A stretch of 60,006 bases of DNA, the filler included, from Globobulimina sp. (taxonomy: Eukaryota): NCBI GenBank assembly GCA_003354225.1. It is 14 parts of 14 records of this genome, joined end to end, with 100 filler letters (N's around TTAATTAATTAA, not from the genome) between each part and the next. Parts side by side here need not be neighbours in the genome. Positions count along the whole stretch, not along the records: positions 25,774 to 29,967 come from PIVH01001490.1; 13 more parts are not named here. One strand, given 5' to 3'. Below the pieces are notes generated by a model. It ran no database searches. It had not been told where the DNA came from and was given only the letters and a program-made list of their open reading frames with translations. Both the position numbers and the translations under genes were made by a program. Below, one piece after another: positions 8,645 to 31,756 of the stretch; within the stretch, counting starts at the first letter, position 1; each line of letters starts with the position of its first letter.

Positions 8645-11600
8645 ATGGCAACTCTTTTAATATTACTAAGCAGTATATTTTCCAAATGTTTATCAGTCAC
8701 ACCGCTCGGCGATTGGAGATCCGGCGGCCAAGCATCCAAACATTACTACGCAGGCGCCGGATCCAGCACAGCTTGCGGTTTTATCAATGTGGACAGTTAT
8801 TTAAACGGAGTGCCTCCACATCCATCGCATGACTCAGCCTTTCCGTTTGGTTTCGTTTCAGCCGTTGGTACCGTACCTACAGGCTCCCCCTTTGACAATT
8901 TATTCTCTCCCAACGATGTCACTGGACAAGGCTGTGGCGCATGTTATGAAATCCAATGCATCGGAATCTGGGGCGATGCACAAGAAGGTATATAATACAT
9001 ATTTAAAAATGCATTAACATACATATTCCCCTACATATACACATAAAAAAGGCTGTGTGTGTAACGCAGAGAGTGTGGTGGTGCAAGCCATTGATTTGTC
9101 GGGACTGAATCCTGAACCACATTTTGATATTGCATATGCGGGATTTGATGTAATTGCGGGTCCGTTGTGCGGCCGCGTAGCCATTGATTATCGTCAAGTG
9201 ACCTGCGACTTCACCGACAATATCTATATAAGTACGGATTGGAACGATGCCTGGTCATATTATTTGAACTTTTATAATGTGGCAGGCGACGGGAAATTGT
9301 GTGGCGTCGAGTTACGATCGAATGGAGTTAGTGAGTGGATGACATGTAGCAATATCGGATCAAAATGGCAGTGTGATGACTCCAACTTGGAACCTACTGT
9401 TTTGCCGTTGAGCTTCCGCTTAACGGATTGTGCCGGACAGGTAATCACTGCCATTGATGTTGTGACGGCATTTGGTGCTATCACCGGTGTGTAATATTGC
9501 ATACAAATGCAAATGGAATCTATACAGCGGATGTTTATGTATACAGCGGATTTAGGCGTCAATTTCGTGTATGGAGGCGGTGTAAGTACCAGCAGCACGA
9601 CAACAACGACAACCACCACCACGACAAGTACCACTGCAGCACCTGTGGGTGGTATAACATATCCATTGTTTGTGTCGTATGTTGGACAAATTGGCCCATC
9701 GTGGGGTGATTCGCACAATGCAGTTCTTTTAAGCAATCTGTTAAGTGCAAATCTATCAAAAATGAAGACATATTGTACTCTGTATACAGTACTTTTCATT
9801 TCGCTGTTTAGTTTGTGTCCGATTTACATTTTTGTACTTAAAAACAAACCTTAACACAAACTGAAATGTGCTGTATACCGTACATTTACATTATAACCAT
9901 TTAAATACATATATTTTGTTAAAAATAAAAGTGGTGTACCAGGCTACAGTACGCATCCATACAACGTATTAAATTTTGCATTTTGGCTCTCGAGCACAAA
10001 CGTCGCCGCACTCCGCACCGCGGCCGGAAGTTGGCAAAACTTAGCAACCTTCATCACGGACAACACGTTACTTCAAACCTTGACCGGTTCGACAAACCCA
10101 ACTTCAGCCCAATTACGCACAGCGATCAAAGCCATATACACCGCCAACAACATCAAAATATTCCTATCCGCCTTTGGCGCCAACGACGATCCCATGACCT
10201 ATGGCGCGAGCACAGTGGGTACAAATTTAGGCAGCTATGCAAAAACATACTTATACGATGGAGTCGATGTAGATTGGGAAAGTACGGCCACTTTCGACTA
10301 TGCAGGTACTGGCGAAGCATGGCTAACTGCGCTAACTTCGGCGTTAAACACCGAATTAAATCCGACGGGGAAAAGTTATCTGATCTCGCACGCGCCGCAA
10401 GCTCCTTATTTTATGGGCAGCACACTCTCTCAGTACCCGCGGGGCGGCTATTTGACAGTACATAGCAACGTGGGACATTTGATTGATTGGTACAATGTGC
10501 AGTTTTATAACCAGGGTCCCTCGACTTTGTACAATAGCTATTCCAATATGTTCGAGGCTTCGATTGGTTGGAGCTTAAATACTGCGGTGTATCAGATGAT
10601 AAATGGCGACAATCCGGAAAGTGTATCCATACCAAGCAGCAAAATTGTTGTTGGCAAACATTCGTTGGGCGATGGCAGCGATTTTGTGGATGGAGCTACA
10701 TTGAAAAGCATCTTCAACATTGCTTTGGCGAGTTCTCCGGTATGGAATACGGGGTTTATGTGCTGGCAGTTTTATACGGAGAACACTCAGAGTCCGCAGT
10801 TCCAGGTCGCGAATGCAGTGGTTGCTGCCAATTGGGATTTGACTGTGACGGCAGCGCCGACATCGCCGACCTTAGCACCGGCGCCGACTACGGCGAATCC
10901 GACCGGTAACGGTGGAGGTGGTGGCTGTGTGAGCGGCAATATTTGTGTTAAAGTAAAAGGTATTTTGATGTGTTTTTTGGTGGTTTGTAGGTTGAAACAT
11001 TGGGTTTTTGTTTTTGAAAACGTGCAGGATTTGCATCTGAAACACCGACGGCGGGGTCACCGGTTTGGTGGTGGGGCATATATGACGAGAATATCATAGA
11101 TTCGTTGGGCGGTGGTTGTGCTATCTCGGGTTGCACAGATATCGAAATAAAGCAAAGTAGTTCGAATGTGTGGATTGCTGCTTATGATGAAAATGGTGAT
11201 TGCAGCTTTAATATGGGAGGTGATCCATTTACATCTGCTCGGATCTCAGTTGATGTTAAGATTACCAGTACCAATGGCGATGTTGTTGTGGCTGCGGGCG
11301 TTGTGCAGACAACTGCTGCTGATACGGAATGGGATTTTGGCTCTAATTTTGGTTCATGCACTGGTGCCACCGGTATGTAGTATATATTATGTATATTTTG
11401 TGTATAAAATGCGTTTTGCGACAGCAAATCCGTCGAGCTCACCAACGGAAAGACCATCTGCAACACCTACAGCAAGGCCTTCAGGTATAACATAATAAAT
11501 ATATTACATAATATGAGAATTAATTAATATTTTTGCGACAGCAAATCCGTCGAGCTCACCAACGACAAAACCATCTGCAACACCTACAGCAAAACCGTCA

Positions 11601-12620
11601 GGTATATAATATGAACATTCTGCACACAAAATTAAACCATGTATACATATAACAGCAAACCCGTCAATCTCACCAATAGAAAATCCAACCGCAGCACCAA
11701 TTGATAGTACATCAACGCCAACTAAATCCCCCGCAAATGACCCAACATCACGACCTACACGAAATCCAACGGGAAGTCCAACACAAAAACCTTCTAAAAA
11801 CCCAACATCTTCTCCCAATGCACGTACCTCAACGCCCTCTAAAGCCCCAACCACAAAACCTACCACAAACCCAACCCAAAATCCAGCACAAAACGACACA
11901 CCAAATCCCACCAAAACCCCAACCAGAAAACGACCGACGAGAAGTCCAAAGCCGACGAGAAGTCCACATAGTGAGACAACGCCATGTATCAGTTCGTGCA
12001 CAGGCGAAGCTAACCGCGATTATCAATCATGTAATGGGTGCCGTGTGTTCGCGACCTGCAGCAATGGCATCATTTATGACAATAGAGCCTGTCCAGCGGA
12101 CTTAGTATTTGATGCTGACCTGAAATATTGTGGCCGTACTTCCAGCACTTGCTCAGACTCAAATGCCTTCACCAGTGGTGGCGGCGGGAGTGGTGCGACG
12201 CAGTCATTGTATATTGTGTTGAGTGTGGTGGCGTTGCTTATTGTTTGTTGTGGTGTCGCCGCCCTGTCATTCCGTTGTGTGTATAAAAAGAAAAGAAGCA
12301 AAACAAGAAGGAAATCGCAAGAAGACTTGGCTAATGTTATCCAAATGAATGACTTGGCGTCGTATCCTGGACCGACTCATGTCGCATTACCCTCGAAATC
12401 GGTTGGTCTGGATACGAATACTTCGACGGATGGCTCTCAAATTGGGTTTGCTGCCAATACTGATTCTGGAGCAATGTTATCGGTGCAAGCCCCAGCCATT
12501 AAAGCACTGAATATGGTGAAATCTTATTCGGTGTCGGTTTATTCGCCGGAGTTGAAACCGGTGCCGCAGCCACAAATTGCATCGCAACCGCAAGATACTG
12601 ACAATTCGTTTGTTATTTAA
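8645..12620 (+). CDS. Multidomain membrane-anchored expansin (DPBB+CBM63) - GH18 chitinase - CBM63-like - PT stalk - CBM14 - TM protein (~1142 aa, 8 exons)
   Basis: Exons 8645-8987, 9052-9486, 9547-9739, 9932-10959, 11028-11372, 11425-11484, 11542-11601 and 11656-12620 splice in frame (3429 nt). Expansin motifs ACG, GCGACYEIQC, HFD and PLSFRLT; GH18 YDGVDVDWE, ISHAPQAPYF and NVQFYNQ; CBM14 CPADLVFD...C; TM followed by KKKR. Confidence 0.85.
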
Positions 12621-17522: not shown

Positions 17523-20500
17523 ATGGCATCAAAAATGGACGACAGACTGTCGTTATACGAGTGTATTCGCGACAAAATCAGCGACTATTTTATGAAGCAA
17601 TCATACACGGCGTCCGCAGATTTAATGAGCATATTTGGCTCAATCTTAGGCGACAAAATGTTATGGAATTTATTAATTAAAGGTTTATTCCATCATTTAC
17701 ATTATATCCCAAAAATCCAATTAAACCTAATCAACGAACAATTATCATCGCGAATATCAGACTTACAGCACAAACAAATACAACAACGAGAATTAGCCCT
17801 AGAAATCAAACATTTATACAGCAAATCCATAATGAACGGCAACAAAAACAAAAAAAAAGTACAAAAGGGAGCAAACTCTGACAACAAAGACAGCGACGGC
17901 GACGACAGCGATGCGTCAAATCATTCCCTCTCGAAACCCAAATCCAAGCACAGCAACAAAAAACAACTCAGTTAAACACAGCGACCTACAACGCCATCCA
18001 CTCTCTGTATACGTATACAATTCACCCCCAACACACAGAATTGCTGAAGACAGACGTGGCCTCTTTGAAGAACGCCACCTTATTATTATCCGAGAATTTT
18101 AGCACTTTGCGATATGTCAACAACTTATCCGACGATATGTGGATCAAAATCTTCCAATATTTAGATTTGTACTCCATCTTAAAATGCGAGCGGACGTGCC
18201 ATTATTTCTGCCGCGTCACCTCCAACAATCCGGCCTGTTTCACCAACTTCAAATACTCCTTCTGTCCCTCCAACAGATCGTACATGTTCCGCCATTACCA
18301 GCGCCTCAACGGTATCAACGACCCTTTTTACCGATTCCGCCATTCCACCAAAGTGCATTTATCCTTTTGGAGCAAAGAAAACTACGAATTCCGCCTCTTG
18401 ACCGCGTTCGGCGACCGCTTCCGAAATGTGCGCTCGCTCACAATCGAAGTGAACCGCGAGTCGCCTTTGGTGGATTTGTCCCAATTGGTCAAGAAATACA
18501 GCAACTTTTTCGTGTCCATCCGGAGCGTCGTGATCTGTGTCCATGGCTTAGGTCAACCGCATCCCAACCCCCATAACCGAATGATCACTTTGTACAAATC
18601 GCTCATCTCATTCATCCTCATCCGCTGCAGCTTCATCCGCACGCTCACCTTAAATTACTCGCTGTTGACGCAGTGTTATCGCCACGTGTCGTCCTGCTTG
18701 GAATTGACGCAGATCCTGTGCATCAACAGCAAGTCGCAGCTATTCAACGACCATAAACAGATCCAAGACGACGATTTTAGTAACATCATTATCTTTAAAA
18801 TGAACAACTCGGTGAACGACATCGTCAATGACGGCATGGCCGATGCAAATAATATAGCGGTGGATGACAATGTGGAGGATCGGCATAGTCGACATCGCCA
18901 TTCCCATCGTCATCGCCATTCCCATTCCCATCGACATCGCCATGACGAGGACGAGGACGACAATAAGATGAAAATCATCAAATTGGGCAACATCGAGACG
19001 CAGATTCAGCGCGAGATTAAGATCATTTTTTATCGACGACATGTCCGCTACTCATTTTTGTCTTATTTCCATAACCATATAAGGTCCATCCACGTGCATA
19101 ACAGCATGGGCTTTAGCAATGACATCGAGTCGCCGGAGTCGCGCCGATTGAATCTGGACACCGCCTTCGGTGAATATGAGTTCTTGGAAGAGCTCTGTCT
19201 CTACAATGTGAGCAACAAAATCTCCACTTTCGTCAATTCGCATTGCAGAAATTGCCCGATAATGAACAAAATGAATATCATATTTGACAGCAACAAGAAT
19301 GTGTATAACGCGGATCAGTTACACAAAACCATCAAAGTTTTGTTGTTTAATACCGACCAAAACCATCAAAGTAGGAATCAATTTCGATTCAATACTAACC
19401 ATTCAAACGACAATTCGTTGAATAACAACGCCACGGAGCCGCCGCCGACGCAGACGACGCACGGATTGGATTACGAAGAGGAGGAAGTGGAGGACGACAA
19501 TGCCGAAAATAAGACAGATTCGACGGGAGCCAGCGACAATAATATCGACGGCGAGTTGTATTTGTACGGCGGCTATAATCGACGCGGCTTAATCCCGAAA
19601 TTGATGAGGAAATACTTGAATATCATCACTTTAAATTGCGACATCTCGTCCAATGTCAAGCTATTGAGCAACATCGAGAAAACGTTCGAAATCATCGCCA
19701 ATGAGTTAGGCATTGCGGGCTATGCGCAGTACGCCAATGAGAACAGTGTGAATTCCTTGTTTTTGCAGTTGAATTTATTTGTGCACATTCACATCGATGT
19801 GGAGTGTAACAACACGGACGAAATTAAGAAGTTGTTACAGTTATTGAAGCATAAATATTTCCAATGCGATTACACTTCGTATCATATCATCGCGAGGAAA
19901 ATGCATCGCGTTTCGACGCCGAAAACCAAAGTGTCCAAAGCTGAGAGCATTGCGAACAAACCACACAAAGGCGGCCGGACCTTCTCTTTGAACGCGTTGG
20001 CGATGAAAGCGACGAAATCCAAGTTTACCTTTAAAAATAATAACATTGCAATCGATAACAATGAGCAGAAGCAAGTCGCTGTGACTATCCATCCCGAAAA
20101 AGAAGCGAATTCGGCCACGTCCACGCCGCGCACTGCAAATTCGGACAATATCAATCTGGAGAAGATGGCGAGTGATCCGGCGCTGATTTATCAGAACAAA
20201 CTGGAGAACCACGACGAGAATGGACCGACGTTGATCAGTCCCTCGATTTTGCACAGACAGACCGGGGTTGGTTGCGGAGAGATTGACGACGGCAACAAAT
20301 CGGATGGCGGTTCTTCGTCGAACACGGGCTCTGGCATCAATTTCAAAGACGCGATGAATAAAATGAAATTATTTCGCAAATCTGTACAGAAATTAATTAA
20401 ATCCAATGCGGACCCCAACCATTCACAGAATAATAACGGGAATAACAATGATGATGAGGCGAAGGCAAATGATAATAATATGAATAAAAGAGCAGCAAAT

Positions 20501-25568: not shown

Positions 25569-25773
25569 TATCAAACTTTAGTTTTTCAACAAGCAGTTTT
25601 TTATAGGCAAAAAAAAAAAGAATATATCAGCACTTTAGAATAGAACGTGTTTAGAAGGCAACATCCGCCCATTNNNNNNNNNNNNNNNNNNNNNNNNNNN
25701 NNNNNNNNNNNNNNNNNTTAATTAATTAANNNNNNNNNNNNNNNNNNNNNNNNNNNNNNNNNNNNNNNNNNNN

Positions 25774-26447
25774 TTCTTCAAATATATTTTAATTTGTCTT
25801 TGGTGAAATCTCGCAGTGATCCAAAATATAATTGCTCCCACAAACAATACATACATTCGTATAATAAATGTAATCCAAAACAATATAAACATTGTGAATT
25901 GAAAGGTATTTTGTGGTTTATGTTCTTTTCCCCAAACAATTTTCTGCCATGATGCTACAGCAACGGATGTTATTAAGCCACCGGAAAGAAACAATGTAAT
26001 ATAATTCCGGCCATAATGAGTCATTACAAATGCTTGAACTGAACACAATTTCCAGAAATGAGGAGATTTGATGAAATATATTAGAAATGCTATATAAAAA
26101 AATGGATAAACACAATCAAGGGTGGCTGTTAAATACAGGCTTCCGCGATTGTTGCTATTGATTGTTACAGACAAGGAATAAAAGCCCATTGATAAAGAAA
26201 ATAAAATCAACAATCTCTGAGCCCAACGCAAAATAGAGATAAGTTTATGTGTGGTGTCAGGCACGAATCCATAAAAAAGCAATGAATATCTCAGCAATCT
26301 ATTTGGACAACACGCTATAGATCCAAATTGTTGCGGTATAATAATGTCTATGTCATGTTTCTTGTCTACTAATAAGGGAACCTTTTGTCGACCGCTCAAT
26401 ATTGGTTCGCTTGTACTCACTGAATTGTCAGAAAGTAAAAAATACAT
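25774..26447 (-). CDS. Multi-pass membrane protein, N-terminal half; possibly gustatory-receptor-like
   Basis: Four hydrophobic helices after LLRYSLLFYGFVP; truncated at the spacer. Confidence 0.6.
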
Positions 26448-26521
26448 TGCTTCTATCGTTTAATATTCGAAGATTCGATAAAGTTTCGAAATTCCGAAAA
26501 CGCGTTAAGTGAAAAATTAAA

Positions 26522-28459
26522 ATGGCTTTCGATAGAAGATACATCTTTGCAGTCTTGGCGTTTGTAGCCGTAGTTTATGTTTGGAACAAATACAAACATA
26601 GGAAAGGTTCACTTAATTCTGTGCTCTAATTTGATCCAAAACTCACAACCAAAAAATTAAAAAAATGAATAGCTGCAAACAAATACGTAGAATCTGATAA
26701 AAGTAAGAAAAAACACACTGACATGGATTCTGGTCCAACAGTAACAACAAAGTTCAACACCAAAATAATCCCATTAAAACCACCAAGAAACGATTCATAC
26801 TCAAAAGCATTATCCACTCATTACAAGTTCAATTATTCCCATCCTCAATACGATGCAAAACATGACACTTTTAATAATCAATTCAAAGTCATAACTTTCA
26901 ATGTTTTGGCAAACTGTTATGCATTGATCAACCGCTCATATTCAACATACTGTTCCTCTCAACATCTAAAAGCAGAATACAGATTCACTAAAATTGCTAA
27001 AATATTGCTAAAATGTGATGGAGATATTATATGTTTGCAAGAAGTCGACGACAAGGATAAAACCTTATTATTGCTGGATTTAGAAAACAATCATAAATAC
27101 AAAGTTTATTATGCTAAAAAAAGCAACAAGAAACAGGATGGACTAGTAATAGCGTATAAAATTCGTAAATATCAACAATATGATACTGCTGGCATCTCAG
27201 TGATCAAATTAAATGACTTATCATTAGGCTGTGCCTCTGTCAATTCACAGCAATATTTTGCCAAAGATCAAATTGCAATTTATATTTTATTACAGCCAAT
27301 ACGCGATCCCTCGCATTTATTATTTATTTGCAATACACATTTATATTATCGCCCAAATGCAAATGATATCAGATTGAGACAGATTGCATATATTTTAAAT
27401 GTTATACATAAGAAATATACTGAGATCAAAATGGAAAATAAATATAATAAGATATCACTGATATTTTGTGGTGATTTCAATACTTTGCCGGATACCTATC
27501 CAATTAATGAGTTCCTGTTCAATGGCAAATATATAATGAGAGCTCAAGGCAACTCGCCATTGCAATTGATAATGGATTCAGCTTTGGATAAAGTGGCGAG
27601 ATGGTGCCGTTCGTTGGGTGTTGACTGTGCCTCTTTCAGTGCGCAAAAATTAGACACTGAAAACGCAAATAAATTGTTTAAAATATGCGAGGATGAAAAT
27701 CGAATTTTAATCACGCGATCAAAGCGGTTGGTGCAGAGGAAAAATTGTCCAAAGCATTTCTTATTAAATAATGATTTTGCGAGAGATAATTTGAAACAAA
27801 TCATTAAATATTTTGACATTAAGTATGACGACAACGCCATTTTTACGCGGTGTACTTTGTGCAATGCATATTTTAAAGAGTTGAATGTGATGGACGATGC
27901 AAAGGAGATTTATGAGAATGATCAAATACCGCAAAAGTTGAAAGTAAAGGCTGTGGAACATACATTTTGGAAATGTTTGAATTGTTCGCAAGTTTATTGG
28001 TTTGGTGAAAAATCGCAAAGAGAAGTTGCAAAGTTTAAAATTATTTTTGCTGAAACTTTGCTGGAAATTGATAAGGAAGAAAAGGAAAACAAAGAGATAT
28101 TAATGAAACGATTGAGGAAACAGAAAGTGTCAGATATTTGTAATGTGAATGATAAATTGAAGTTATTGCCAAATTTACAAAGATTTTTTTGGGAGAATGT
28201 CGTGTTTGTAAATCCCTTTGGAAATAGAATAAAATGTTCGTATAGATGTATTTATGGAGAATCACCGGAATATACAAATAAAACAAATGTGTTTAAAGGA
28301 TGTTTGGATTATATATTTTATGCGGATTTGATAAATGATGAAAATGTAAACATAAAAAGTGTGAAATCTCAGTTGGTCGAAGGTGATAAAACAAACTATC
28401 CCAACAGTACATGGCCAAGTGATCATATTTTGTTAATGTCAACTTTTAAAATTCAATGA
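26522..28459 (+). CDS. Signal-anchored CCR4/Angel/nocturnin-type EEP nuclease-phosphatase with inserted Mut7-C domain (~623 aa, 2 exons)
   Basis: Exon 26522-26606 (MAFDRRYIFAVLAFVAVVYVWNKYKHRK) splices through a 66-nt intron to 26673-28459. EEP motifs TFNVLA, CLQEVD, NTHL, CGDFN, LDYIF and WPSDH. Mut7-C motifs MDSALDKVARWCRSLGVD, ENRILITR, FTRCTLCN and FWKCLNCSQVYWFG. Confidence 0.85.
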
Positions 28460-28758
28460 GCAATGCATGTGATTCCAATGCCGACTATGGTTCAATGCAT
28501 CTGAAAGAAGCTGATTCGAGGCCCTATCTTTTTTTGTCCAGTCTGTTTGCATAAAATTATTTTTGCAAATTTAAAGAACGGAAATCAAAATATATACATG
28601 TTGAAAAGATACAAACAATTGAATGAGTAATATGAGCGGTTTGATTGTACGGAAGCTGCGGAATGGTCTGTATAAAAAACGAGTTGCATTTATTGAGAAA
28701 AAAAAAACAGTCAATCTAAAAAATTTCTTCAAAACTCTAAGAAATGATTGTGTTCTAT

Positions 28759-29781: not shown

Positions 29782-30067
29782 CGGAAATACTGCTGTTTTC
29801 AAAATATATTTTTATCTACGAGTTTAAGCATGCCTTCATTGTTAACATACATACCTAAATAAAATTGATCTTTGTAATGATGATATTCAGTACGTTGACA
29901 TTGTGATTTTCAACTCTCAGAATTTGACTCAAAAAACTGTTTGCGAATAAAATCGGTACGTACAACANNNNNNNNNNNNNNNNNNNNNNNNNNNNNNNNN
30001 NNNNNNNNNNNTTAATTAATTAANNNNNNNNNNNNNNNNNNNNNNNNNNNNNNNNNNNNNNNNNNNN

Positions 30068-31756
30068 TTATATAAAACGCCATCACGGTCAACTTATTCA
30101 CCAGTCATTGAATGCCCAGATTGTGGCTATAAATGGGACCATCCTGCTTCTGTATTGTCGCCTTATTTCAATACATTTGGTAATTATTATTTTAAAAATC
30201 TCTATAAATTAAATATATTTCCACAACAAATCATTGGTATCATCATAGATTACTGCATGTTTGCCGATGATCGAGCCTTTGATGCAGAAATTGATGCAAA
30301 TGTCAAACGGAGTATGTTGTATCAGGAAGGATATTGGTTTCATTATTTATTAGTATATAACCCGCACAAAAATTGGATGTGTAATTATTATTGGTTGCCA
30401 TATCGAATAATTGAGCAAAATTATGACGATGAATCTGTCTGTTTATTACCAATGAATAAGGAATATATTAATAAATGGACCCATTTCCCTGTGATTTGGA
30501 TTAAATATCAAAATAAAAAAAATCTTTATGCATCGTTTAAAAACGATTCGGAGGAAGAAAAAAGAGAAGATATTGATGGTACGGATGGTGTTGACGAGTT
30601 ACATAATTTTAAATTATCTTCAAAAGTATTACGGATTGATACAACAGGCTTTGATGTTGGATATGAAAATGAAAATTTACAAAAAATGAAAAAAACGTGG
30701 TGTTCAATATCCGCTGATTTTAGTTTGGTGGATCCTGATATTTGTATATATTTTGGCAATGTTGCATATAAAAAAACTGGTTATCAAACGCATAAAATAT
30801 TACCGCAGGGAATGTATCAAATATTTATTAAAACGTTGACTGGCAAAAGTATTACAATTGCGGTGGAGTTAAATGATACCATTCAAAATATTAAAATGAA
30901 GATTCAATGCAAAGAGGGAATACCGCCGGAACAACAAAGATTGATCTTCGCTGGGAAACGATTGGAGGATGGACGGACTTTATCGGATTATAATATACAA
31001 AAAGGTTCCACATTGCATTTAGTATTGAGATTACGCGGCGGTGAGTTGTATTTAAATGGGGTTAAATTGGATGATAATGTTTCAATGGGTGTTATTTTGC
31101 AAAAAGTTGTTAAAGAATTTAAAATGAAACAAGAATTATTTGAGCCACGATTGAGGTCAAATTGTTTGAATTTAAATGGAGATTTTAGTGATAATATGTG
31201 TGTGTTGAATAACAATCCGTTTATGATGCGTTGTGATGATATTATGCATGAGAATGAATTGGATTTATTGAGCAGTGAAATGTATCGAATTTGTGAGAGT
31301 TATTCTAAATTTTGTGACATTGAATGGATTGATTTTAGTTTGGAGGAATTGAAAATTAAGCAATTTGTACATAAATGGTGTTTCGATTTATTTAAAAAGA
31401 TTTTAAATTTTAAATATGATGTGAATAACTTAAAAATCAATGGATTTGTTTTAAATGAAAACGCAAACAATTTAAATAAAAAAGATTCAACCTTTATTTA
31501 TCATCATTACGGTATTGGACAAAATTCAAATGGCAGTGTTACCCAATTTCATTCGGATGAAAGTCATATTACAATTGATTTATGTTTAAATTTAAAAAAT
31601 AATGGAAATGGGTGTTTAAATTTTAAAATTGATAATGGTGTTAAAATTAAACATCAGAAAGGACGATTGGTTGTGTTTAATGGTAATATTCAACATTCTG
31701 TTACACCAATTACAAGTGGACAACGACTTGCCCTGATTGTTTTTTGCAAATTTTAA
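30068..31756 (+). CDS. Fusion: unknown N-terminal region (CPDCG) + internal ubiquitin + 2OG-Fe(II) oxygenase; 5' truncated
   Basis: Frame is open from the contig edge. Ubiquitin-like domain at 30812-31042 ([12 protein letters not shown]...[15 protein letters not shown]...[10 protein letters not shown]). C-terminal [15 protein letters not shown]...[18 protein letters not shown] gives the HxD...H...R set. Confidence 0.85.

What the first reader, a model, noticed from the sequence alone, without database searches (positions are those of the whole stretch)
26522..28459. CCR4/Angel-type EEP nuclease with a Mut7-C (PIN-like, Zn-ribbon) domain inserted in its catalytic core, plus a hidden membrane-anchor exon
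Seen: all EEP catalytic motifs are intact, and about 160 aa (roughly 27560-28040) between CGDFN and LDYIF/PSDH form a full Mut7-C domain with two CxxC pairs. An upstream exon missed by the ORF track adds an N-terminal TM followed by basic residues. Established: eukaryotic Mut7-C normally accompanies the DEDD exonuclease of MUT-7/EXD3/Nibbler in small-RNA 3' trimming, and Angel/CCR4/PDE12 act on RNA 3' ends. Inference: a different nuclease paired with the small-RNA module and anchored to an organelle surface, suggesting an alternative RNA 3'-end processing route.
Basis: partly seen in the sequence, partly recalled or inferred. Interest (0 to 1): 0.75.

Follow-up and report, generated by a model that had tools for sequence, protein, structure and literature searches.

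The report
CCR4-like nuclease with inserted Mut7-C domain
A real two-exon protist gene encodes a membrane-anchored enzyme of the kind that trims RNA tails, with an RNA-binding zinc module inserted into its catalytic fold; many protists share this design, and I found no study of it.

Summary
Window 26522-28459 (+) is a two-exon gene of 623 codons. Pfam finds an endonuclease/exonuclease/phosphatase (EEP) domain split by a complete Mut7-C domain. All EEP catalytic residues and both CxxC pairs are present. AlphaFold2 closes the EEP fold around the insert. The insert's only strong structural match is the MUT-7 C-terminal domain, 8Q66.

The "hidden" first exon is real. Contigs from two studies lack exactly the 66-base GT..AG intron, and two relatives carry the same N-terminal hydrophobic segment.

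The fusion is not unique. 130 of 146 representative clusters scanned carry both domains. Named members come from Rhizaria, Stramenopiles, Alveolata and Euglenida. On EEP-only columns the fusion proteins form one group, apart from PDE12, CCR4 and NGL2. Databases give only automatic names, and five literature searches found no paper on the fusion.

Most likely it is a self-contained 3' exoribonuclease that uses Mut7-C as a built-in RNA-binding arm and faces the cytosol from a membrane. The proposed link to small RNAs is unsupported. The scan's notes hold no earlier finding of this fusion.

The parts
26522..26606 (+). Exon 1 (coding part): start codon plus 28 codons and 1 base. It encodes the N-terminal hydrophobic anchor and the first basic residues.
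   Evidence: Translation. An in-frame stop lies 3 codons upstream. Contigs of X2 and X8 begin at 26517/26518 next to adapter sequence. P0004 and P0005 have the same N-terminus.
26540..26584 (+). Predicted transmembrane or signal-anchor segment, spliced residues 7-21 (15 hydrophobic residues).
   Evidence: Mean Kyte-Doolittle 2.45 over 15 residues, the highest in the whole protein. It is flanked by RR before, and by 9 K/R against 4 D/E in the 30 residues after.
26607..26672 (+). Intron, 66 nt, GT..AG, phase 1.
   Evidence: Sequence. Skipped in one contig each of X2, X7 and X8 (table 5: 'skips 66, GT..AG (cut +2)').
26673..28459 (+). Exon 2 (coding part), ending in the TGA stop at 28457-28459.
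   Evidence: Open frame. The spliced CDS is 1872 nt. Stop codon.
26673..26878 (+). Basic linker predicted to be disordered, between the anchor and the catalytic domain.
   Evidence: pLDDT below 50 for frame residues 1-59 and 61-65.
26879..27538 (+). EEP catalytic domain, N-terminal two thirds (frame aa 71-290). It carries N78, E125, H224, D269 and N271.
   Evidence: Pfam stretch 76-289. PDE12 alignment 58-287. Strands 71-290 in the model. Conservation.
27563..28021 (+). Inserted Mut7-C domain (frame aa 299-451): a Rossmann-like/TOPRIM-like part plus a zinc ribbon.
   Evidence: Pfam E 8.9e-27. Domain model pLDDT 94.3. 8q66_A is the best hit in Foldseek (E 1.2e-3, prob 1.00) and VIA-align (Z 10.1, 149 residues aligned). 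The domain profile hits 8q66_A at E 1.9e-7.
27851..27862 (+). First CxxC of the zinc ribbon (C395, C398).
   Evidence: 58 of 58 in alignment A3.
27974..27985 (+). Second CxxC of the zinc ribbon (C436, C439).
   Evidence: 58 of 58 in alignment A3.
28007..28120 (+). Long charged helix (frame aa 447-484) leading from the zinc ribbon back to the EEP core. Its length varies among relatives.
   Evidence: DSSP helix 447-484, with pLDDT falling to 67-74 at aa 481-510. Length variation in alignment A1.
28145..28456 (+). EEP catalytic domain, C-terminal third (frame aa 493-596). It carries T536-N537, D547 and D585-H586.
   Evidence: PDE12 alignment 530-593. Strands 511-595 in the model. Conservation.

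Best explanation
The gene encodes a Mg2+-dependent RNA 3'-end hydrolase of the CCR4/PDE12/Angel branch of the EEP superfamily, most likely a 3'-to-5' exoribonuclease or deadenylase. It lacks the partner-binding modules of its named cousins: there is no LRR as in CCR4 and no PDE12 N-terminal domain. Instead, a Mut7-C zinc-ribbon domain is built into a surface loop just after the GDFN strand.

Shown: the gene and its splicing, the split EEP fold with all catalytic residues, the Mut7-C identity of the insert, and conservation of this exact topology in a large protist family that forms one group on EEP-only columns.

Inferred:
1. Mut7-C acts as a cis RNA-binding arm that holds the substrate for the EEP active site, as it does for the unrelated DEDDy nuclease of MUT-7/EXD3.
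2. The chemistry is 3' exonucleolytic.
3. In this lineage the short, moderately hydrophobic N-terminal segment, with the more positive flank on its C-terminal side, anchors the enzyme in a membrane with the nuclease facing the cytosol. The membrane could be the ER or the mitochondrial outer membrane.
For: Gene and splice:
- 26 of the 40 between-run differences listed are synonymous and 27 of 40 fall on third codon positions (using table 3, where 18 more differences were not shown).

EEP domain:
- Pfam hit.
- PDB sequence hits: PDE12 1.8e-21, CNOT6L 2.7e-21, Ccr4 1.5e-19, ANGEL2 4.3e-17.
- Full model pLDDT 86.4, pTM 0.82. Foldseek finds CNOT6L 5dv4 at E 1.9e-18 with TM 0.77 normalised to the target, over 546 alignment columns for a 344-residue target, so the match spans the insert.
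- Catalytic residues in family alignment A3 (58 sequences): N78 55/55, E125 56/56, H224 58/58, D269 58/58, N271 58/58, D547 46/49, D585 44/46, H586 44/46 non-gap rows.

Mut7-C domain:
- Identity established.
- Conserved basic positions: R314, R345 and R357 in 57/58 each, R311 as R40/K15, K352 as K33/R14.
- The T-x-S-K motif aligns with the equivalent stretch of C. elegans MUT-7.
- From the passages I read of Busetto et al. 2024 (PMC11347159): MUT7-C raises ssRNA affinity about 8-fold, deleting it slows degradation, and the isolated domains served as negative controls in the nuclease assays.

No other accessory domain: only two Pfam families at E <= 1.

Family:
- 74 of 74 and 56 of 72 representatives carry both domains, and 49 of 53 relatives of P0076 do.
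- 36 of 36 fusion proteins lie on one side of a branch with SH-aLRT 98, using 284 EEP-only columns.

Anchor:
-.
- 9 of 186 held family proteins have an N-terminal hydrophobic segment ahead of the EEP domain; 65 of the 186 have 25 or more residues there.
Against: - No activity, substrate or localisation was tested.
- Retention of EEP residues does not distinguish a deadenylase from a 2',3'-cyclic phosphatase (ANGEL2), a 2'-5' phosphodiesterase (PDE12) or an NADP(H) phosphatase (Nocturnin).
- Three acidic positions of the Mut7-C part are fairly well kept (D303 as D48/E6, D319 as D42/N12, E343 as E51/Q5 of 58), so a second catalytic site is not excluded.
- I could not inspect model coordinates, so whether the insert faces the EEP active site is unknown.
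- Most named family members have no N-terminal extension (for example P0009, P0064 and P0068 start at the EEP domain). The anchor is therefore lineage-specific and says nothing about the family's core role.
- Some of the N-terminal hydrophobic segments seen may be signal peptides.
- The kind of the three runs that carry the spliced form is not on record.
Confidence: 0.6

Rival explanations
1. Two-nuclease enzyme: the Mut7-C insert is itself an active PIN-like endoribonuclease, and the protein couples an endonucleolytic cut to EEP exonucleolytic trimming.
For: Pfam and earlier papers call the domain an RNase with PIN-like catalytic residues (Iyer et al. 2006, PMC1779556, passages; Burroughs and Aravind 2014, PMC4075521, passages). 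D303, D319 and E343 are kept in 48, 42 and 51 of 58 family members.
Against: - In the same proteins the EEP catalytic residues are 100% kept at five positions, while the Mut7-C acidic positions drift (D to N in 12, E to Q in 5, D303 to F/H/N/V in 4).
- S351 is S in 53 of 58 and never acidic.
- Matelska et al. [quoted passage not shown]
- Busetto et al. 2024 used the isolated domains as negative controls in nuclease assays and found no PIN-like structural match.
- Here the domain matched 8Q66 and generic Rossmann-like folds.
Confidence: 0.15
2. The EEP core does a different 3'-end chemistry: a 2',3'-cyclic phosphatase as in ANGEL2, a 2'-5' oligoadenylate phosphodiesterase as in PDE12, or a nucleotide phosphatase as in Nocturnin. 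Mut7-C would still serve as the RNA-binding part.
For: The family is about equally distant from CNOT6L (219.9 bits), PDE12 (209.2) and ANGEL2 (198). Foldseek E-values are also close: 1.9e-18, 1.1e-17 and 1.1e-16. All these enzymes share the same catalytic residues.
Against: - Nocturnin is clearly more distant (159.5 bits; E 2.6e-12).
- A small-molecule substrate fits poorly with a dedicated RNA-binding insert.
- Nothing tested here favours cyclic-phosphate over phosphodiester chemistry.
Confidence: 0.2
3. Functional analogue of PDE12 inside mitochondria: the N-terminus is an import signal or inner-membrane stop-transfer anchor, and the enzyme removes spurious poly(A) from mitochondrial RNAs.
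For: By single-sequence search, PDE12 proteins are the best-scoring relatives without a Mut7-C domain (E 2.4e-27 and weaker). PDE12 is also the top PDB sequence hit. The N-terminus is hydrophobic and then basic.
Against: - No PDE12 N-terminal domain PF21171.
- On EEP-only columns the fusion family is separated from the PDE12 group by a branch with SH-aLRT 98.
- The family profile scores CNOT6L above PDE12.
- Most named family members have no N-terminal extension at all.
- The segment is uniformly hydrophobic rather than amphipathic (the reading of it is mine).
Confidence: 0.1
4. Assembly or annotation artefact: two genes joined by mistake.
For: None found.
Against: Contigs of independent runs bridge every domain border. 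The same order of parts occurs in 130 of 146 representatives scanned. The model closes the EEP fold around the insert.
Confidence: 0.01

Closest known systems
CCR4 / CNOT6 / CNOT6L deadenylase nuclease domain (PDB 3NGQ, 5DV4, 4B8C)
   Same: Same EEP fold and the same catalytic residues. It is the best structural match (E 1.9e-18, TM 0.77 on the target) and the best match to the family profile (219.9 bits).
   Different: There is no leucine-rich repeat, so no evident way into the CCR4-NOT complex. A Mut7-C domain, long helix and flanks, about 240 residues in all, are inserted after GDFN. This gene also has an N-terminal membrane anchor. On EEP-only columns the family lies outside the CCR4 group.
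PDE12, 2',5'-phosphodiesterase 12 (PDB 4Z0V, 4ZKF). Its role as a mitochondrial deadenylase is recalled, not checked here.
   Same: PDE12 proteins are the best-scoring relatives without Mut7-C in the single-sequence search, and PDE12 is the top PDB sequence hit (1.8e-21). The alignment fixes the insertion point: a loop of about 31 residues in PDE12.
   Different: It lacks the PDE12 N-terminal domain PF21171. It falls outside the PDE12 group in the tree. It has a hydrophobic anchor where a matrix-targeting presequence would be expected.
ANGEL2, 2',3'-cyclic phosphatase (PDB 6RVZ)
   Same: Same branch of the EEP superfamily: 4.3e-17, 198 bits, E 1.1e-16.
   Different: It scores slightly lower than CCR4 and PDE12. 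There is no hit to the ANGEL2_N family in the Pfam scan. No Angel sequences were available for the tree, so the relationship is untested.
MUT-7 / EXD3 (Nibbler family): DEDDy 3'-5' exoribonuclease with a C-terminal MUT7-C domain (PDB 8Q66; Busetto et al. 2024, PMC11347159)
   Same: The same accessory domain: VIA Z 10.1 with 149 residues aligned, sequence profile E 1.9e-7 with shared D..R..G-D and T-x-S-K motifs. In both cases it accompanies a 3' exoribonuclease-type catalytic domain.
   Different: The nuclease is unrelated (EEP, not DEDDy; no PF01612 hit). The domain is inserted inside the catalytic fold, not appended at the C-terminus. No HEAT-like N-terminal domain is detected. Nothing links this gene to Argonaute or small RNAs.
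Other Mut7-C architectures in the literature: stand-alone in archaea and bacteria, fused to a ubiquitin-like domain in bacteria, and DEDD plus aminoacyl-tRNA-editing domain in oomycetes (Matelska et al. 2017, PMC5499597; Iyer et al. 2006, PMC1779556)
   Same: The same domain with four conserved cysteines.
   Different: The passages I read do not list an EEP partner.

Membership tests
EEP superfamily, CCR4/PDE12/Angel/Nocturnin branch | Pfam PF03372 above the gathering score | tested here: met
   55 bits against a cut-off of 24.5, in two stretches.
EEP superfamily, CCR4/PDE12/Angel/Nocturnin branch | Catalytic Asn, Glu, His, Asp-x-Asn, Asp and Asp-His | tested here: met
   N78, E125, H224, D269, N271, D547, D585 and H586 are present and aligned to PDE12 and CNOT6L. 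They are conserved across the family.
EEP superfamily, CCR4/PDE12/Angel/Nocturnin branch | EEP fold | tested here: met
   Model pLDDT 86.4. Foldseek: CNOT6L E 1.9e-18, PDE12 1.1e-17, ANGEL2 1.1e-16, Nocturnin 2.6e-12.
EEP superfamily, CCR4/PDE12/Angel/Nocturnin branch | Metal-dependent hydrolysis at RNA 3' ends | not testable with these tools
   Needs an enzyme assay.
PDE12 orthologue | PDE12 N-terminal domain (PF21171) | tested here: not met
   Only PF01927 and PF03372 at E <= 1. The PDE12 hits do carry PF21171 or PF23197.
PDE12 orthologue | Groups with PDE12 on the catalytic domain | tested here: not met
   All 36 fusion proteins sit on the other side of a branch with SH-aLRT 98 (quick search, limited outgroup).
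CCR4 / CNOT6 orthologue | Leucine-rich repeat that binds CAF1 | tested here: not met
   No LRR family. The CCR4 hits carry LRR families.
CCR4 / CNOT6 orthologue | Groups with CCR4 on the catalytic domain | tested here: not met
   The 5 CCR4 rows form their own group (support 100), apart from the fusion family.
ANGEL orthologue | Groups with ANGEL1/2; 2',3'-cyclic phosphatase activity | tested here: inconclusive
   ANGEL2 scores 198 bits against 219.9 for CNOT6L. No Angel sequences were in the tree. The activity is not testable here.
Mut7-C (PF01927) | Pfam hit above the gathering score over nearly the whole model | tested here: met
   94.4 bits against 23.3, profile positions 2-141 of 146.
Mut7-C (PF01927) | Four conserved cysteines of the zinc ribbon | tested here: met
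   C395, C398, C436 and C439, in 58 of 58 family members. Zinc binding itself is not testable here.
Mut7-C (PF01927) | Fold of the only solved member (MUT-7 C-terminal domain, 8Q66) | tested here: met
   Foldseek rank 1, E 1.2e-3, prob 1.00. VIA-align Z 10.1, rmsd 3.4, 149 residues aligned, the only hit with Z >= 8 among 48,161 chains.
Mut7-C (PF01927) | Binds single-stranded RNA | not testable with these tools
   Shown for MUT-7 and EXD3 in PMC11347159. Here it is only inferred, from conserved Arg/Lys positions.
MUT-7 / EXD3 / Nibbler | DEDDy 3'-5' exonuclease domain (PF01612) | tested here: not met
   No such hit at E <= 1.
PIN-like nuclease (catalytically active) | Set of invariant acidic active-site residues | tested here: inconclusive
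   D303 in 48/58, D319 in 42/58, E343 in 51/58. The position of S351 is never acidic.
PIN-like nuclease (catalytically active) | PIN fold | tested here: inconclusive
   The top-50 lists show 8Q66, then Rossmann-like, receiver-like and TOPRIM domains. A family that is not listed is not excluded.

The most novel reading that the evidence does not exclude
The EEP-with-inserted-Mut7-C proteins are an ancient, previously unrecognised fifth branch of the CCR4/PDE12/Angel/Nocturnin deadenylase group. It is spread over Rhizaria, Stramenopiles, Alveolata and Euglenida and works independently of CCR4-NOT. The inserted Mut7-C forms a composite RNA channel with the EEP active site. In Rhizaria an added N-terminal anchor places this activity on an organelle or ER surface, giving localised RNA 3'-end trimming. 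Two unrelated 3' exonuclease folds (DEDDy and EEP) would then have recruited the same accessory domain independently, which would establish Mut7-C as a general 3'-end RNA clamp.
Probability: 0.3. Interest if true: 0.65.

Novelty: new variant of a known kind. Interest (0 to 1): 0.5.

Why it matters
Eukaryotic deadenylases of the EEP type are known as four branches (CCR4, Nocturnin, Angel, PDE12), all studied mainly in animals, yeast and plants. This gene belongs to a fifth, protist-wide group. It replaces the usual partner-binding modules with an RNA-binding domain built into the catalytic fold.

The group also gives the poorly understood Mut7-C domain a second, independent nuclease partner. 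That supports the recent proposal that its ancestral job is RNA binding, and it offers a simple system to test it: one polypeptide with no complex partners needed. The membrane anchor in this lineage would, if confirmed, be a case of spatially restricted RNA 3'-end processing.

Its importance is limited because the family is already present in databases under automatic names, and because every functional statement here is inference.

Tried and rejected
- Whole genome: none is held for this window. Paralogues, such as a canonical CCR4, PDE12 or MUT-7 in the same organism, could not be sought.
- RNA evidence: no RNA holder is listed by the look-up of sequencing runs. The runs laid are Logan contigs of unrecorded kind, so expression level, strand and exact ends cannot be stated.
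- Profile-word search with alignment A2: it returned only the eight close relatives plus ordinary PDE12, CCR4 and NGL2 proteins, and did not reach the distant fusion members. The exhaustive search and the search with P0076 did.
- Single-sequence search of the Mut7-C part against PDB sequences: 0 hits at E <= 10. Only the profiles found 8Q66.
- Prokaryotic Mut7-C genes for comparison: the scan of genome contigs with the window's domain matched 51 patterns, none confirmed. With the domain alignment A5 the tool found no stretch conserved enough. I therefore could not test my recollection that prokaryotic versions carry an acidic residue where this family has S351, and I leave that claim out.
- PIN-fold similarity: no PIN domain is among the 50 rows shown in either. 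This is no proof that the folds differ.
- ESM Atlas: busy twice. It then gave one cluster with both domains (120 members, commonest phylum Bacillariophyta) for both queries, and no structure search.
- Earlier notes of this scan: 0 for the fusion. 15 mention Mut7-C, and the 8 shown concern bacterial or archaeal genes. None for this genome.
- Literature: 'Mut7-C' (10 papers); PDE12 / PIN domain / zinc ribbon; PF01927 / IPR002782 / DUF82 / COG1656 (mostly false matches to other DUF82x names); CCR4 / deadenylase / diatom / PIN domain; Nocturnin / PDE12 / Angel / CCR4 / phylogenetic / stramenopiles. None describes the fusion. I did not open the supplements of Matelska et al. 2017 or Busetto et al. 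2024, and they may list such architectures.
- Neighbouring genes are ordinary and unrelated: ERp29-like, a ubiquitin-domain protein, 3-hydroxyacyl-CoA dehydrogenase, annexin-like and F-box. They give no functional context.
- Complex prediction was not used, because no protein partner is claimed.
Full report
**1. What is in the sequence**

A stop-to-stop frame of 596 codons runs from 26669 to 28459 on the + strand. Residue numbers below are those of this frame; add 27 for the spliced protein.

Pfam finds two families in it:
- Mut7-C (PF01927) at residues 299-451, E 8.9e-27, 94.4 bits against a cut-off of 23.3.
- Exo_endo_phos (PF03372), E 1.2e-14, 55 bits against 24.5, in two stretches, the best at residues 76-289.

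No other family reaches E <= 1.

Against human PDE12 (4z0v), residues 58-287 align to chain positions 112-344 and residues 530-593 to positions 376-437. About 242 residues therefore occupy the place of a loop of about 31 residues, directly after the GDFN strand.

The EEP catalytic residues are all present: N78, E125, H224, D269, N271, D547, D585 and H586. So are the two CxxC pairs, C395/C398 and C436/C439.

**2. The upstream exon**

- An ATG at 26522 opens 28 codons plus one base. A TAA lies three codons upstream in the same frame.
- GT at 26607 and AG at 26671-26672 bound a 66-base intron. The junction restores the long frame and gives a CDS of 1872 bases, 623 codons plus TGA.
- When public runs were laid on 26400-28600, one contig each of X2, X7 and X8 skipped exactly these 66 bases (GT..AG). 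X7 and X8 are one sample, so this is two studies.
- Contigs of X2 and X8 start at 26517/26518 directly next to adapter sequence. That is a weak hint that the transcript begins 4-5 bases before the ATG.
- The kind of these runs is not on record, and two are only guessed to be RNA. Strictly, the result shows that an intron-less form exists in public data. I read it as cDNA.
- Spliced residues 7-21 form the most hydrophobic 15-residue stretch of the protein (mean Kyte-Doolittle 2.45). Two arginines precede it, and 9 K/R against 4 D/E follow in the next 30 residues.
- Relatives P0004 and P0005, at 56-63% identity, have the same N-terminus.
- P0002, P0003, P0006 and P0008 lack the segment; P0003 and P0008 begin within or just before the EEP part. 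They come from automatic gene calls on short contigs, which could miss such an exon, so their lack of it says little.

**3. Not an artefact**

- Contigs bridge every domain border: X2 covers 26671-27825 and 27796-28410, X7 covers 27389-28005 and X6 covers 27618-28471.
- Runs X6-X8 differ from the window at many sites. Of the 40 differences listed, 27 fall on third codon positions and 26 are synonymous. A further 18 differences were not shown. This is the pattern of a coding frame under selection.

**4. Structure**

- With a 58-sequence family alignment, AlphaFold2 gives mean pLDDT 86.4 and pTM 0.82. Only residues 1-65 are disordered.
- The order of elements is: EEP strands 71-290, the insert 299-444, one long helix 447-484, then EEP strands 511-595.
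- Foldseek aligns the whole model to CNOT6L (5dv4: E 1.9e-18, TM 0.77 on the target, 546 alignment columns for a 344-residue target). PDE12 (1.1e-17), ANGEL2 (1.1e-16) and Nocturnin (2.6e-12) follow. The EEP fold closes around the insert.
- Folded alone, the insert reaches pLDDT 94.3.
- Its best Foldseek hit is the C. elegans MUT-7 C-terminal domain, 8q66_A (E 1.2e-3, probability 1.00). The TOPRIM domain of RNase M5 is at rank 7.
- In an exhaustive VIA-align run, 8q66_A is the only one of 48,161 chains with Z >= 8 (Z 10.1, rmsd 3.4, 149 residues aligned). The next rows, at Z <= 7.1, are generic Rossmann-like domains.
- A domain-only profile finds 8q66_A by sequence at E 1.9e-7. The alignment shares the D after strand 1, the R..G-D motif and a T-x-S-K motif.

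**5. How common is the fusion**

- A word-based search found only eight relatives with PF01927, P0002-P0009.
- An exhaustive profile search of 1.84 billion representatives gave 11,692 hits at E <= 1e-3 and 454 at E <= 1e-30.
- I scanned 146 of the best 150 against Pfam. The other four were already in the query alignment.
  - 74 of 74 carry both families at E <= 1e-3. Four of these have an EEP score below Pfam's own cut-off: P0077, P0108, P0119 and P0136.
  - 56 of 72 carry both at E <= 1e-5. Of the rest, 10 have EEP only, 5 have Mut7-C only, and one (P0144) has only leucine-rich repeats. Many of those 16 are short fragments.
  - Wherever both the N-terminal EEP part and Mut7-C matched, the EEP part comes first.
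- A search from the distant member P0076 gave 53 proteins at E <= 1e-20. All have PF01927 and 49 also have PF03372.
- Named members:

| Organism | Group |
|---|---|
| Bolivina argentea, Nonionella stella | Foraminifera |
| Lapot gusevi | Rhizaria |
| Leptophrys vorax | Rhizaria |
| Amorphochlora amoebiformis | Rhizaria |
| Epipyxis sp., Mallomonas annulata, an Ochromonas-labelled MMETSP protein | Stramenopiles (lineage checked for Mallomonas only) |
| Effrenium voratum | Dinoflagellates |
| Ploeotia vitrea | Euglenida |

- Transcriptome labels can be wrong through contamination.
- The ESM Atlas holds one cluster of 120 members with both domains, commonest in diatoms.
- Source names are automatic: 'mRNA deadenylase ... 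[quoted passage not shown]
- No animal, fungal or plant protein with both domains turned up in these lists. The animal and fungal hits were ordinary PDE12, CCR4 and NGL2. The searches were not designed to prove absence.

**6. Place among EEP enzymes**

- The family profile scores CNOT6L 219.9, CNOT6 211.1, PDE12 209.2, yeast Ccr4 208.8, ANGEL2 198 and Nocturnin 159.5 bits.
- I built a tree on 284 EEP-only columns, with the insert removed, from 62 rows. All 36 fusion proteins fall on one side of a branch with SH-aLRT 98. The other side holds 10 PDE12, 5 CCR4, 3 NGL2 and 8 other EEP proteins.
- This fits a single insertion event and a separate branch of the CCR4-like group.
- Limits: it was a quick search, the fusion rows were chosen by a profile that included the insert, no Angel or Nocturnin rows were available, and the tree is unrooted.

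**7. Conservation and what it suggests**

In the 58-sequence alignment:
- The EEP catalytic positions are kept in all or nearly all non-gap rows: N78 55/55, E125 56/56, H224, D269 and N271 58/58 each, D547 46/49, D585 and H586 44/46 each.
- In the insert, the four cysteines are invariant.
- Several basic positions are nearly invariant or conservatively replaced: R314, R345 and R357 in 57/58, R311 as R40/K15, K352 as K33/R14.
- The acidic positions that could form a PIN-type site are only partly kept: D303 in 48, D319 in 42 with 12 N, E343 in 51 with 5 Q.
- S351 is never acidic.

The contrast within the same proteins argues that the EEP site is the catalytic one and that the insert is mainly a binding module.

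This agrees with the passages I read of Busetto et al. 2024 (PMC11347159):
- MUT7-C is ancient, with a TOPRIM-like part and a zinc finger.
- It contributes about 8-fold to ssRNA affinity in MUT-7.
- Deleting it slows degradation by MUT-7 and EXD3.
- The isolated domains served as negative controls in nuclease assays.

Matelska et al. [quoted passage not shown] They list its known partners as a DEDD exonuclease, a ubiquitin-like domain and an aminoacyl-tRNA-editing domain. They do not mention EEP in those passages.

**8. Most likely mechanism**

- The protein is a self-contained RNA 3'-end hydrolase. The EEP site removes 3' nucleotides, and Mut7-C, set into a loop beside the GDFN strand, holds the RNA.
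- It has neither the LRR that brings CCR4 into CCR4-NOT nor the N-terminal domain of PDE12. It probably works without those contexts.
- The N-terminal segment is short and moderately hydrophobic, and its C-terminal flank is the more positive. By the positive-inside and charge-difference rule (established knowledge, my application), the bulk of the protein would then face the cytosol. The membrane could be the ER or the mitochondrial outer membrane. I cannot tell which.
- The anchor is not a family trait. 9 of 186 held family proteins have an N-terminal hydrophobic segment ahead of the EEP domain, and 65 of the 186 have 25 or more residues there.
- Among those nine, the named ones are rhizarian: Bolivina, Leptophrys and Amorphochlora. 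Some of the nine may be signal peptides, or parts of plastid-targeting signals in algae with complex plastids.

**9. Verdict**

The architecture and the anchor exon are right. 'Angel-type' and 'small-RNA module' are not supported. The fusion is widespread rather than singular.
I did not open the supplements of the two key papers.
- I rate it a new variant of a known kind, of moderate interest.

Noticed in passing
window 4198-55817, in pairs, for example 25674-25717 and 25730-25773: There are 26 runs of exactly 44 N, in 13 pairs spaced about 4290-4296 bases apart across the window. They look like masking or scaffolding marks rather than biology. None lies inside the gene studied, but they cut the neighbouring frames, for example 30024-30067.
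   Followed up: no
window 26517-26522: Contigs of two runs start 4-5 bases before the start codon, next to adapter sequence. This suggests an extremely short 5' leader. The divergent neighbour's contig ends at 26440, so the two genes' ends lie under 80 bases apart.
   Followed up: no
window 30020-31753 (+): An open frame has a ubiquitin domain in its middle (aa 268-339, E 2.2e-30) and a weak 2OG-Fe(II) oxygenase match at its C-terminus (E 1.9e-4, below the cut-off). This is an unusual combination if it is one gene. An N run interrupts its start.
   Followed up: no
window 25775-26459 (-): The divergent upstream neighbour is a 228-aa frame, hydrophobic by eye, with no Pfam family.
   Followed up: no
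relatives P0075, P0086, P0070: Some family members carry extra domains. The Ploeotia protein P0075 has DUF4291 at its N-terminus. P0086 has a small methyltransferase domain (MTS, PF05175) at its C-terminus. P0070 shows three Mut7-C stretches plus a weak DUF5615 match.
   Followed up: no
relative P0144 (1371 aa): It scored 208 bits against the family profile, but Pfam shows only leucine-rich repeats at E <= 1e-5. It may be a CCR4-like protein with a divergent EEP part.
   Followed up: no
window 10001-12000 and 18001-20000: Two stretches have 45-46% G+C in a window that otherwise runs at 25-40%.
   Followed up: no
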